Part shown: positions 1 to 3,000 of the stretch, one piece after another
How positions within the stretch are numbered: the stretch's first letter is position 1
How the letters are laid out: every line of letters starts with the position of its first letter
IMG/VR virus record: IMGVR_UViG_2721755728_000011
DNA: 64,000 nucleotides
Source of the DNA: a virus
Lineage: Duplodnaviria; Heunggongvirae; Uroviricota; Caudoviricetes
Reading direction: 5' to 3' (one strand)
Made by a program: the position numbers

Positions 1-3000
1 ATGGCGCTCATAAATCTGGTATACTTACCTTTACACATTGGGGCTGATTCTGGATTCGACGGGATTTGCGAAACCCAAGGTGCATGCCGAGGGGCGGTTG
101 GCCTCGTAAAAAGCCGCAAAAAATAGTCGCAAACGACGAAAACTACGCTTTAGCAGCTTAATAACCTGCTTAGAGCCCTCTCTCCCTAGCCTCCGCTCTT
201 AGGACGGGGATCAAGAGAGGTCAAACCCAAAAGAGATCGCGTGGAAGCCCTGCCTGGGGTTGAAGCGTTAAAACTTAATCAGGCTAGTTTGTTAGTGGCG
301 TGTCCGTCCGCAGCTGGCAAGCGAATGTAAAGACTGACTAAGCATGTAGTACCGAGGATGTAGGAATTTCGGACGCGGGTTCAACTCCCGCCAGCTCCAC
401 CAATCATGATTGGACGGTGTAAGGACAACACCAATAAAAACAGGAAGTTAGCAGTCTCAGCAGGACACCGACCAGACGGTGAGGAGACAAAAAAGGATAC
501 GCAAAGGAGCCGCGGCTCCCGAGTGACAAAAAAGCCCGCTTATGCGGGCTTTTTTGTTTTTTTCCCTCAAGCTCACTGACGTGTTCTTGCCTCAACTACT
601 TTCTGGTATATAGCGATAGCTTCATCAACCAAAGCTAATGGATAGCAAGAATTTATATTCAATCCGGAGGGGCACTTAATTCTTTCTGCTCCACGTTCAC
701 TACGCAATTTTTCACACCATTGCCAAAGTTCCTCAACTGAATAGGTATCCAAACCTAACTCCATCAATCGTTGAGGAACACTTCTGAACTGAGACAAATC
801 TCTTAAACTTTCTAACGAGTTAACTTTTAGTTCAACTTGGTTTACTCTACTTTCTAACTCTTCACGTTTTTCTATTTCCATTACCAATGCTTGAACCGTC
901 TGCTGCAGACTGTTAGCAAAAGCACTCAGTTCTGAACGTTCTTGTTTAGGTGGCGGAGGATATACACCAAATTCACGAATAGACGGAAGGACCTGATGAA
1001 AAAGCCAGCGTTGGAATTTTTTCCCCGCAGCAGTAGTATCCTGAGCAAGTACTCTATATAGACCTGGTTCAGTAAGAAATACCTCAGAGATAGTTTCACC
1101 ATCCACGACAAGAGAAACATTCCTAAACTCATCTGGATCTAAAGTTTTTATTACCGCTCTTATTACAGTGAGCAAGCTTTGAGAAGTCTTTCCATCCAGT
1201 TTTCTGTTCTCAGCAGAAAGCGTTCTTAGCACATCTGAAAGTGAAACAAAAATCTGCCCTTTTTCATTCATGCTACGGATATAATTTTCTCCACACTCTC
1301 CTTCGTAGCATAATTGTAACAAATTCTTTTGCACGCCATCCCCTCCTTTTTTTATGGATTATACATCCTATAAACATGTTGTCACCGAAAGGGAAAAGCA
1401 TAAACCCAATTTATGTTCCACAAGATGTTCAAAAATCAAACAACCATATAGCTGAGGAGCACAAAAGAGCAAAAGTTTACCAACCCCATATATCCATACA
1501 GCACATAAAATTGACACTACATGTGGTATTTTTTAAGTTACGCCTTGCACCATTTCATGATTTTATGTAGATTGTCATCACACGCTGAGATTAAAAAATT
1601 CTACAATTTTTGTTGATCTTGAGTTTGGTTTTTAGTATAAGTGAGCATGGATTGTAGGAGGCGCAACATGGTAACTAGCTTTGGTAAGACTCTCAGAAAA
1701 ATGAGAATAGACCGGGGTATGGTGCTCAAAAATATGGCTGATCTGTTAGGCGTTAGTTCGGCTTACTTATCCGCCATTGAATTAGGCAAAAGAGCTATAC
1801 CGGACTCATTAGTAAATACGATTGCAACAACTTTTGAGCTTAGCGGACAAGACATCATCAATCTCAAGAAACAGGCAGAGATTTCTCAACCGTCCATTAA
1901 GGTTGATATGTCGGATGCAAATGAGCAGAACAAAGAACTAATGCTTGTTTTTGCTCGTAAATTTAAGGACCTGAGTCCAGAGCAACTCGATAAGCTTAAT
2001 AAAATGTTAAAGGACTGAATAATGATTGCGAAACGAGAACTTGGCCATCGCGTTTCACCTCTCAGCACCAGCATGATTAAATCATACGCTCATCGTCTGA
2101 GAGACGTTCTTCAGATATCAAATCACACATATCTGAGACTGGATGTATTACTAGAAGGTCTTATGGCCTCAGAAAGCATTGAGCTAGAAATTGTTGAAGA
2201 TCATGAACTGCCCAAACGCTATGCAGTGACTTATCCAGATAAGAACAAAATTGTTTTACAGCGATCTGTTTACGATGCAGTGTGCAATGGTGAGAACCAT
2301 GCGAGATTCACTGTTGCGCATGAACTTGGTCATTTAGTCATGCATCGCAATCAAAGTATCTATGCACGTAATAAGACTAGTGGAGGGCATAAAATCTATG
2401 AAGACAGCGAATGGCAAGCAGATGTTTTTGCAAGCCACTTCTTAATTGACTCAAGACTAGTTTTGCCCACAATGACTGTTGAAGATATAAGCAAAACATT
2501 TGGTGTCAGTCAACAAGCGGCTGAAACCTGGATGAGAAAAAATGCAAAAAGATAACGAAAAAGCCAGCGAACCGCTGTCGCTGGCTTCTCCTATCGTAAG
2601 CAAATACGAAAAACTTGGCGGTTGTGAGTATACGCTTACCTTAGGTTTTGTCAACAGCGAAACTTTACAGGTAACACGATATGACCATTGAAAAAGCTGT
2701 ATCTGAGGAATACATCACAATTTACCGTCCTTTTATTACGGTCAAAGGTAAACGGATCTTTGCTCGTCAAAAAGGCTTGGCAGCCTTTCCTATCAAAATT
2801 CCTGCCTCTAAGTATCGAGGATAATCTTTGCTAATCTTAGGCCCTTTTCTAGGGCCTTTTATTACACTTCTGTTACGCGCACCACAGATAGAGTTTCAGC
2901 TAAAACTTTTGTTCATACCTAGGAGTCTGCTGACGAGTGGTTTGTTCACTAATAAACACGTAAAAACGGTAACGGCTGGACATCATTTAATATTCGCACT

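What the first reader, a model, noticed from the sequence alone, without database searches (positions are those of the whole stretch)
1..572. Prophage abuts an intact ssrA with no integrase and no recognisable att duplication in the window
tmRNA 3' ends are classic phage integration sites and the integrase normally lies next to the tRNA-like 3' end. Here the gene next to ssrA is the accessory locus and tail-fiber end, and the early/integrase end of prophage 1 has been replaced by the palindromic junction. Prophage 1 is therefore likely an immobile remnant, unless int lies beyond another att outside the window.
Basis: partly seen in the sequence, partly recalled or inferred. Interest (0 to 1): 0.35.

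Follow-up and report, generated by a model that had tools for sequence, protein, structure and literature searches.

The report
Ordinary ssrA prophage, cut by assembly join
The prophage next to the tmRNA gene sits in the normal orientation for its phage family, whose integrase lies at the far end, and that far end is missing from the window most likely because separately assembled pieces of sequence were butted together, so nothing unusual is shown.

Summary
ssrA (40-402) is intact, its 25-nt 3' end occurs only once in the window, and no integrase is encoded anywhere in the 64 kb.

The interpretation mostly does not hold. In this phage family the cargo and tail-fibre end is the end that natively abuts ssrA. 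Integrase, excisionase and the att repeat lie about 46 kb away at the other end. This is seen in a complete prophage in E. coli G749, in strains PSS-10 and C3, and in the phages phiNP (Int 93% identical) and LLS (Int 86%, homologous attP module).

Prophage 1 is colinear with these relatives up to 34863, inside a DUF968 gene. About 12.8 kb (early genes, xis, int, attR) should follow. Instead there is a mirror join: the reverse complement of one prophage's DUF968 from gene base 591 is fused to another prophage's DUF968 from the same base 591. A second mirror join, at about 52670, sits at the start of a ~1-kb exact repeat in two tape-measure genes.

Neither join occurs in 5,426 complete E. coli genomes. 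Homologous recombination cannot make such joins. Contig ends butted together can.

Immobility is therefore not shown. A +1 frameshift in terL is the only real hint of decay. Known biology, low interest.

The parts
40..402 (+). ssrA (tmRNA), intact; this is the attL side of the prophage
   Evidence: ARAGORN. Rfam RF00023, 295.8 bits, full model length.
373..403 (+). att core: the stretch of the ssrA 3' end that is repeated at the far end of related prophages. Bases 378-402 are invariant in all nine att sequences aligned.
   Evidence: Alignment of attL and attR from G749, PSS-10, C3, H7 and phiNP. Related E. coli hits that lack ssrA begin at window base 375. The LLS paper reports 29 bp of identity with the ssrA 3' end (PMC12315714).
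404..572 (+). Phage-derived attP arm that supplies the sequence downstream of ssrA, including a strong terminator-like hairpin plus T-run (525-568)
   Evidence: Conserved at attL in G749 and PSS-10, at the internal att of strain H7, and at the left end of phiNP (88% over 142 nt). Continuous with the LLS attP flank. Terminator scan.
573..4019 (.). att-proximal cargo module: BRO-N (573-1334, -), CapH-like HTH (1668-2018, +), CapP-like ImmA/IrrE peptidase (2022-2555, +), two small ORFs (2542-2824, +), and the GIY-YIG gene PD-T4-3 (3246-4019, +)
   Evidence: Pfam. PADLOC: PD-T4-3 at E 2.4e-140, capP at 5e-15, capH at 1e-10. PGAP names in C3. Colinear with LLS genes 30, 28 and 27 next to attP, 75% nt identity.
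4089..12303 (-). Tail-fibre assembly (4089-4673), side tail fibre (4673-8071), Lom (8136-8735) and tail tip J (8806-12303)
   Evidence: 99.7% identical to annotated C3 DNA. Pfam Caudo_TAP.
12334..15723 (-). Mosaic patch of another prophage type: tail genes I and K plus an Ant antirepressor (14112-15158, -) and an Arc-like repressor (15347-15706, +), lying between tail genes K and L
   Evidence: 99.8% identical to the torT-locus prophage of C3, in parallel register. Pfam P22_AR_N, P22_AR_C and Arc.
15723..29302 (-). Tail, head and packaging genes (L, M, tape measure 16760-19855, G/T, V, U, Z, head genes, portal, terL 26705-28808, DUF1441 28808-29302). terL carries a +1 insertion at 28322.
   Evidence: 98-99.8% identical and colinear with C3 and G749. 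Indel list.
30118..34450 (-). Lysis cassette (30118-31294), DNA methyltransferase (31362-32414), two hypothetical genes, and antiterminator Q (33698-34450)
   Evidence: 99.9% identical to C3 2956816-2963178. Pfam Antiterm.
34464..34863 (-). 3' fragment (gene bases 591-990) of the prophage-1 DUF968 gene; the last piece of prophage 1 in the window
34468..35259 (.). Mirror join J1 (between 34863 and 34864): the reverse complement of DUF968 bases 591-990 from prophage 1, followed directly by DUF968 bases 591-990 from a DLP12-like prophage
   Evidence: Inverted-repeat finder. Gene-coordinate mapping. It is the only zero-spacer mirror centre in the window. Absent from 5,426 complete E. coli genomes, from the GTDB representative genomes and from the metagenome contigs.
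34864..52671 (+). Not part of prophage 1. Segment of a DLP12-like (argU-type) prophage running from mid-DUF968 through quuD, a porin gene, lysis genes, bor and nohD, then head and tail genes, to base 1345 of the tape-measure gene.
   Evidence: 99.99-100% identical to OkiPb01675 and C3.
52670..64000 (-). Not part of prophage 1. Segment of a third lambdoid prophage (the torT-locus type of C3) from tape-measure base 1295 back to the large terminase gene. Mirror join J2 lies at its left edge.
   Evidence: 99.9% identical to C3 4611040-4622370. Position relative to the repeat boundary. Absent elsewhere.

Best explanation
Window 373-34863 is the ssrA-proximal three quarters of a lambdoid prophage that integrated into the 3' end of ssrA using a phiNP/LLS-type tyrosine integrase.

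How integration works in this family. attP carries a copy of about 30 bp of the ssrA 3' end, followed by its own downstream arm and terminator. Recombination therefore rebuilds an intact ssrA at attL. It leaves the displaced host copy of the ~30-bp 3' end as a direct repeat at attR.

Why the tail end abuts ssrA. On the phage map, attP lies between a cargo module next to the tail fibres and a short cargo slot downstream of int. The core is oriented so that the cargo and tail end lands beside ssrA, while xis and int land about 46 kb away next to attR. The arrangement in the window is therefore the native one and says nothing about decay.

Why int and attR are missing. The window stops being prophage 1 at 34863, about 12.8 kb short of attR. 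There, and again at about 52670, the sequence is a mirror join of pieces of three different prophages. I read these joins as ends of separately assembled pieces (contigs broken at inter-prophage repeats) placed end to end, not as events in the cell. The early region, int and attR are expected elsewhere in the same assembly.

Shown: the anatomy of attL, the native orientation in relatives, the absence of int and att in the window, and the geometry and uniqueness of the joins.

Inferred: that the joins are assembly artefacts, and that the source strain still has int and attR.
For: Native orientation.
- G749 has a complete prophage. ssrA with the core lies at L006 1209-1233. It is followed by cargo, tfa, tail, head, terL, lysis genes, Q, DUF968, early genes, xis, int (44772-45944) and two cargo genes. 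An exact 25-nt repeat follows at 47580-47604, next to glaH.
- PSS-10 and C3 have int followed by NADAR and DarT and then the repeat.
- The phiNP record starts and ends with the same 25-mer in the same direction, with cargo and tail at the left end and xis, int and cargo at the right end. Its Int is 92.7% identical to the G749 Int.
- LLS, a phage isolated free and propagated on E. coli K-12, has the order tail fibre ... ImmA, HTH, BRO-N, tmRNA 3' pseudogene/attP, one cargo gene, int, xis. Its attP module aligns with window 364-2824 (PMC12315714).
- The integrases carry Arm-DNA-bind_2 and Phage_integrase domains.

Colinearity of prophage 1.
- Window 22050-34863 is 99.8% identical to the int-side half of the C3 prophage.
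- In C3 the sequence continues for 12.8 kb through KilA-N, RusA, the repressor, xis and int to the att repeat.

The mirror joins.
- J1 joins two DUF968 genes in opposite orientation, each starting at gene base 591, which is a site where the two copies differ.
- J2 lies 2 nt and 70 nt into a stretch where the two tape-measure genes become 100% identical for about 1 kb.
- Neither join is found in 5,426 complete E. coli genomes, although each arm alone is common. Neither is in the GTDB representatives or the metagenome contigs.
- Genuine prophage-prophage recombination in C3, and the mosaic patch at window 12334-15723, keep genes in parallel register.
Against: - The source assembly could not be found. 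The claim that the joins are contig ends therefore rests on geometry and on absence elsewhere, not on reads or an assembly graph.
- At J1 the sequence upstream of base 591 is not an exact repeat between the C3 and OkiPb01675 copies; the nearest difference is 21 nt away. The repeat-boundary argument for J1 needs the source strain's own copies to be identical there. This is plausible, because the left arm carries the other prophage's alleles at bases 651 and 717, but it is unproven.
- At J2 the two pieces run 2 nt and 70 nt into the repeat. This is not the equal overhang that a single k-mer size would give.
- Four differences unique to the window near the end of the left arm all fall at third codon positions. 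The arm is therefore genuine sequence right up to the join.
- C3 itself has odd breaks in the same 70-nt zone of the tape-measure gene. A real fragile or recombinogenic spot is not excluded.
Confidence: 0.75

Rival explanations
1. The truncation is real. In the source strain, prophage 1 lost its early region, int and attR through an illegitimate rearrangement that fused it head-to-head with a DLP12-like prophage. It is now a locked remnant at ssrA.
For: - The window as given contains no int and no att repeat.
- terL carries a +1 frameshift and a second 1-nt insertion lies at 22697, which fits a decaying prophage.
- The left arm is good sequence right up to the join.
- C3, a close relative, has heavily rearranged prophages, including strange breaks in the same tape-measure zone.
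Against: - Both breakpoints of J1 fall on exactly the same gene base (591) in two paralogous genes but in antiparallel sense. Homologous recombination cannot do this, and random breakage would hit the same base only about once in a thousand times.
- A second mirror join lies 18 kb away, at the edge of a 1-kb exact repeat.
- Neither join is seen in 5,426 complete genomes.
- From my own knowledge: a 790-bp near-perfect palindrome with a 2-nt centre would be a target for SbcCD cleavage and unstable in E. coli.
Confidence: 0.12
2. Prophage 1 is split by ordinary homologous recombination between lambdoid prophages (a large inversion, as in C3). Its int and attR half then lies elsewhere on the chromosome, joined in normal register to another prophage's late genes. 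Each hybrid would be unable to excise with its own att pair. The mirror joins in the window would only mask this.
For: - In C3 the ssrA-side half is fused to a Qin-like early region with an integrase at rspA.
- The int-side half of the same C3 prophage lies about 530 kb away, ends in nle effector genes next to yodB, and keeps canonical gene order throughout.
Against: The window is colinear with the un-inverted arrangement across the C3 crossover zone (15723-22050) and on to 34863. Any such exchange would have to lie within the last 12.8 kb. There is no direct evidence for one.
Confidence: 0.08
3. One reading: integrase originally lay next to ssrA, as in CP4-57 or P4-like elements, and has been lost, leaving an inverted, degenerate prophage end at ssrA.
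For: Many elements that target tRNA or tmRNA genes do have int next to the target. Examples seen here are intD next to tRNA-Arg in the DLP12-like prophage and the second element of PSS-10, whose integrase directly follows the att repeat.
Against: - The 170 nt directly after ssrA are the conserved attP arm of this phage family and run without a break into the BRO-N cargo, exactly as in LLS and phiNP.
- Complete relatives have int at the far end.
- There is no integrase remnant in the window.
Confidence: 0.02

Closest known systems
Escherichia phage LLS (PQ299149.1), a lambdoid phage with attP in a 29-bp copy of the ssrA 3' end (Genome Res 2025, PMC12315714)
   Same: - The same att core.
- The same attP-flanking module (homologues of BRO-N, HTH and ImmA, 75% nt identity to window 364-2824), on the tail-fibre side of attP.
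- int and xis lie on the other side of attP, and Int is 86% identical to the G749 prophage Int.
   Different: - The tail-fibre region has a Fin invertase.
- The late genes differ from those in the window.
- LLS lacks a PD-T4-3 homologue at the same spot.
- LLS is a complete phage, whereas the window holds only the attL-side three quarters.
Citrobacter phage phiNP (OR565852.1), from C. rodentium DBS100
   Same: - Int is 92.7% identical to the G749 prophage Int.
- The record is bounded by the same 25-nt ssrA repeat in the same direction.
- The left arm is 88% identical to window 378-519.
- The order is att, cargo, tail ... xis, int, cargo, att.
   Different: - Contractile-tail (sheath and baseplate) structural genes instead of lambda-like ones.
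- Different cargo (hicAB, an acetyltransferase, an AAA ATPase).
The complete ssrA prophage of E. coli G749 (NZ_CP014488.1, about 2766700-2813100)
   Same: - 98-99% identical and colinear with window 3036-32914.
- The same attL arm.
- It shows the full element with int and an exact attR repeat 46.4 kb away.
   Different: - Its att-proximal cargo is a type II restriction-modification pair instead of BRO-N, HTH and ImmA.
- Different Q gene region.
- No Ant/Arc patch.
CP4-57 of E. coli K-12 and similar islands, with IntA immediately next to ssrA
   Same: The same target gene. Such elements occur in tandem with the present phage type (strains H7 and PSS-10).
   Different: - Integrase lies at the ssrA-proximal end.
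[quoted passage not shown]

Membership tests
Temperate phage integrated in the 3' end of ssrA by a phiNP/LLS-type tyrosine integrase | Intact target gene rebuilt at attL, with the phage-derived attP arm directly downstream | tested here: met
   Full-length tmRNA. Window 404-560 is conserved with the left end of phiNP, the LLS attP flank, and attL of G749 and PSS-10.
Temperate phage integrated in the 3' end of ssrA by a phiNP/LLS-type tyrosine integrase | Direct repeat of the ~30-bp ssrA 3' core at the other end of the element (attR) | tested here: not met
   Only one copy in the window with up to 3 mismatches. The repeat is present in relatives: G749, PSS-10, C3 (1 mismatch) and phiNP. The window ends prophage 1 about 12.8 kb short of where attR should be, so this failure concerns the window, not necessarily the strain.
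Temperate phage integrated in the 3' end of ssrA by a phiNP/LLS-type tyrosine integrase | Tyrosine integrase (Arm-DNA-bind_2 plus Phage_integrase domains) and excisionase next to attR | tested here: not met
   No recombinase signal in the window. Present with these domains in G749, C3 and phiNP.
Temperate phage integrated in the 3' end of ssrA by a phiNP/LLS-type tyrosine integrase | Orientation: cargo and tail end proximal to ssrA, int distal | tested here: met
   The window order matches G749, PSS-10, C3, phiNP and LLS.
Lambdoid (lambda-like) siphovirus prophage | Q antiterminator, lysis cassette, terminase, portal, head, tail (tape measure, J, Lom, side fibre, tfa), all in one transcription direction | tested here: met
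   ORF map. Pfam Antiterm and Caudo_TAP. 98-100% identity to PGAP-annotated prophage DNA.
Defective (cryptic) prophage remnant | Loss or inactivation of genes essential for excision or virion production | tested here: inconclusive
   int, xis and attR are absent from the window, but this occurs at a probable assembly join. terL has a +1 frameshift at 28322 (TGA to TGAA on the + strand), which could be real or a sequencing error.
Genuine long DNA palindrome or inverted duplication | Both arms derive from one locus (fold-back), or the junction is reproducible in independent genomes | tested here: not met
   The arms come from two different prophages (left 99.8% identical to the C3 ssrA-type prophage, right 100% identical to the DLP12-like type) and differ at 20 of 400 positions. 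The junction is absent from every other collection searched.

The most novel reading that the evidence does not exclude
The two mirror joins are genuine. In that case, paralogous genes of three lambdoid prophages were fused head-to-head or tail-to-tail at identical or nearly identical gene coordinates. This would point to an antiparallel strand-switching process between prophage copies during replication or repair. Homologous recombination does not explain such joins, and the process would have stranded the ssrA prophage without its integrase.
Probability: 0.06. Interest if true: 0.55.

Novelty: already known. Interest (0 to 1): 0.1.

Why it matters
It matters mainly as a caution, in two ways.

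1. 'Integrase sits next to the tRNA or tmRNA gene' is a tendency, not a rule. For the phiNP/LLS-type ssrA phages the tail and cargo end is the proximal end. Calling a prophage degenerate from its orientation alone gives false positives.

2. Mirror-image joins between paralogous prophage genes, placed at the edges of inter-prophage repeats, should be treated as assembly seams before any biology is built on them.

A side result with modest practical value: both att-flanking slots of this phage family carry interchangeable defence cargo. The slots hold PD-T4-3 with a CapH/CapP-like regulator pair, a type II restriction-modification pair, HicAB, or DarTG. The ssrA locus is therefore a good place to look for such genes.

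Tried and rejected
Tracing the source assembly (failed).
- Exact 47-nt and 51-nt junction patterns were not found in the GTDB representative genomes or in the metagenome contigs.
- Exact-protein look-ups found nothing for the two chimeric tape-measure ORFs, the truncated terL fragment or the J protein.
- No complete RefSeq E. coli genome holds the window's arrangement.
- As a result, the second att copy and int could not be sought in the source genome itself.

Explanations considered and rejected.
- The window is E. coli C3. Only partly: 1-12334 is 99.7% identical, but the window is a different mosaic of C3-like prophage pieces.
- The joins are products of a homologous-recombination inversion. 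That process keeps genes in parallel register, as C3 shows.
- The joins come from a wrong walk through a repeat in an assembly graph. That would also give a parallel hybrid, not a mirror.
- The cluster of differences at the end of the left arm is low-quality sequence at a contig end. The four unique differences are all at third codon positions, so they are natural allelic variation.
- An integrase is hidden in an unannotated frame.
- The divergent stretch 12334-15723 is another seam. It is a parallel-register mosaic patch, 99.8% identical to another C3 prophage.

Not done.
- The Islander paper gave no statement on which end integrase usually occupies.
- I did not look for an empty ssrA attB.
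Full report
**1. The observation**

ARAGORN and Rfam both find one full-length tmRNA gene at 40-402 on the + strand. The tag peptide is ANDENYALAA, and the Rfam match is 295.8 bits over the whole model.

Downstream of ssrA lie, in order:
- a strong terminator-like hairpin (525-568);
- a BRO-N gene (573-1334, -);
- an HTH/ImmA pair;
- two tiny ORFs;
- a GIY-YIG gene;
- tail-fibre assembly, tail fibre, Lom and J, all on the - strand.

The last 25 nt of ssrA occur once in the window, even with three mismatches allowed.

No integrase is present. tblastn with nine recombinases taken from related loci gave nothing below E = 0.07. 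A tyrosine-recombinase HMM run against all 800 six-frame ORFs gave nothing below E = 0.7.

**2. What the prophage is, and which way round it normally sits**

The first 6 kb are 100% identical to E. coli C3 from cattle. Many other E. coli genomes carry the same DNA starting at window base 375 but without ssrA in front of it. This already marks about 375-403 as the repeated att core.

Complete and partial relatives then settle the orientation.

- **G749** has a full element. The ssrA core lies at locus 1209-1233. It is followed by cargo, tfa, tail, head, terL, lysis genes, Q, DUF968, KilA-N, RusA, repressor, early genes, xis, int (44772-45944) and two cargo genes. An exact 25-nt repeat follows at 47580-47604, next to the chromosomal gene glaH.
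- **PSS-10** has a deleted version with the same two ends: int, NADAR, DarT and then the repeat. That repeat is followed directly by the integrase of a second, CP4-57-like element.
- **C3** has the same int, NADAR, DarT and repeat end, with one mismatch in the repeat.

The G749 integrase has Arm-DNA-bind_2 and Phage_integrase domains. It is 92.7% identical to the Int of Citrobacter phage phiNP and 86% identical to the Int of Escherichia phage LLS.

- The **phiNP** record begins and ends with the same directional 25-mer. Cargo and tail lie at the left end; xis, int and cargo lie at the right end.
- **LLS** was isolated as a free phage and propagated on E. coli K-12. It has an annotated tmRNA pseudogene/attP. 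Its authors report 29 bp of identity with the ssrA 3' end (PMC12315714).
- The LLS map reads: tail fibre ... ImmA-like, HTH-like, BRO-N-like, attP, one cargo gene, int, xis. Its attP module aligns with window 364-2824 at 75% identity.

An alignment of nine att sequences shows two things. Window 378-402 is invariant. Window 404-560 is the conserved phage arm rather than host DNA.

The cargo and tail end next to ssrA is therefore the native arrangement for this family. The premise that integrase should be adjacent to ssrA does not apply. It does apply to other elements seen here, such as intD next to tRNA-Arg.

**3. Where prophage 1 stops**

Local BLAST against the fetched loci gives the following map.

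| Window | Best match | Identity |
|---|---|---|
| 1-12334 | C3, ssrA side | 99.7% |
| 12001-16196 | C3, torT-locus prophage (parallel-register mosaic patch with an Ant/Arc module) | 99.8% |
| 15723-22050 | C3, ssrA side | 99.7% |
| 22050-34863 | C3, int-side half of the same prophage type | 99.8% |

In C3 that int-side half continues for another 12.8 kb through KilA-N, RusA, the repressor, xis and int to the att repeat.

In the window the sequence changes abruptly at 34863/34864. From there to 52671 it is a DLP12-like prophage on the opposite strand, 100% identical to C3 and OkiPb01675. At 52670 it changes again, to a third lambdoid prophage on the - strand.

**4. The nature of the two joins**

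*J1.* This is a 395-nt, 95% inverted repeat with a 2-nt centre. In gene coordinates it is the reverse complement of DUF968 bases 591-990 from prophage 1, followed directly by DUF968 bases 591-990 from the DLP12-like prophage. The breakpoint is the same base in both genes, and base 591 is a site at which the two copies differ.

*J2.* This joins tape-measure bases 1-1345 of the second prophage to the reverse complement of bases 1-1295 of the third. The two genes become 100% identical for about 1 kb from bases 1276 and 1294 respectively. Both pieces therefore stop just inside (70 nt and 2 nt) the start of an exact repeat.

*Uniqueness.* Neither join is present in any of 5,426 complete E. coli genomes, although each arm alone is common. 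Neither is in the GTDB representatives or the metagenome contigs.

*Why this is not recombination.* Homologous recombination joins sequences in parallel. C3 shows what that looks like. Its ssrA-side half is fused in register to a Qin-like early region ending in an integrase at rspA. Its int-side half is fused in register to a tail and effector end next to yodB.

A mirror join at the same gene base cannot arise that way. Random breakage would very rarely hit the same base twice. Pieces of an assembly that each end where an inter-prophage repeat begins, and that are then placed end to end, give exactly this picture.

I therefore read J1 and J2 as assembly seams, with about 80% confidence.

*Weaknesses.*
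- I could not find the source assembly.
- Upstream of base 591 the C3 and OkiPb01675 copies are not exact repeats.
- The overhangs at J2 are unequal.
- C3 itself has odd breaks in the same 70-nt zone of the tape-measure gene.

**5. Consequence for the finding**

The absence of int and of the att repeat from the window follows from two things: the native gene order, and the loss of the last 12.8 kb of the prophage at a probable seam. It is not evidence that the prophage is immobile.

The only direct hint of decay is a single-base insertion at 28322 that frameshifts the large terminase gene, together with another at 22697. These could be sequencing errors.

**6. Comparison with what is known, and verdict**

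Integration of LLS-type and phiNP-type phages at ssrA, the size of the att core, and tandem occupancy of ssrA are all already described, or can be read directly from deposited records (PMC12315714).

Nothing here is new. It is an ordinary prophage end, plus a sequence seam that misled the reading.

Interest is low (0.1). The residual novel reading, that the mirror joins are real, has a probability of about 0.06.

Noticed in passing
window 34468-35259 and about 52497-52776: Two mirror-image joins between paralogous genes of three different prophages: DUF968 at base 591 in both copies, and tape-measure genes at bases 1345 and 1295. Both are unique to this window among all collections searched, and are most likely places where assembly pieces were butted together.
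   Followed up: yes
window 28322 (terL, 26705-28808, -) and window 22697: Single-base insertions relative to C3. The first frameshifts the large terminase gene at about codon 162. The second lies near the 3' end of a DUF2190 head gene. They are either real decay or sequencing errors. The C3 and G749 tape-measure genes are annotated as frameshifted, whereas the window's copy (16760-19855) is open.
   Followed up: partly
window 1668-4019: The att-proximal cargo looks like a defence module. The GIY-YIG gene matches PADLOC PD-T4-3 over its full length (E 2.4e-140). The upstream HTH/ImmA pair matches the CapH/CapP regulators. In relatives the same slot holds a type II restriction-modification pair (G749) or HicAB plus an acetyltransferase (phiNP). 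The slot next to int holds DarT/NADAR (C3, PSS-10) or an AAA ATPase (phiNP).
   Followed up: partly
window 14112-15706: A P22-type antirepressor (Ant) and an Arc-like repressor are inserted between tail genes K and L. They are part of a 3.4-kb patch that is 99.8% identical to a different prophage (the torT locus) of C3.
   Followed up: partly
window 4132-4330 (-): Rfam family IS009 (RF02111) matches at 225.9 bits inside the tail-fibre assembly gene region.
   Followed up: no
L001/L002, L005/L013 (E. coli C3, NZ_CP010119.1, about 2.94-2.99 Mb and 3.45-3.50 Mb): In C3 the ssrA prophage is split. The ssrA-side half is fused in register to a Qin-like early region whose integrase abuts a truncated rspA. 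The int-side half lies about 530 kb away and ends in nleB2, nleC, nleH and nleF next to yodB. This implies large inversions by recombination between lambdoid prophages.
   Followed up: partly
L008 10099-16113 (C3, DLP12-like prophage): The C3 tape-measure gene is interrupted between bases 1278 and 1337 by two tandem partial copies of J plus lom. This is the same 70-nt zone in which the window's second mirror join lies. It is either a real hotspot or a shared assembly difficulty.
   Followed up: partly
L006 47580-47700 (G749 attR flank): The DNA just downstream of the G749 attR repeat resembles the phage attP arm (window 404-470) with a few differences. This suggests a remnant of an earlier phage of the same type, or that the arm mimics the native ssrA downstream region.
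   Followed up: no
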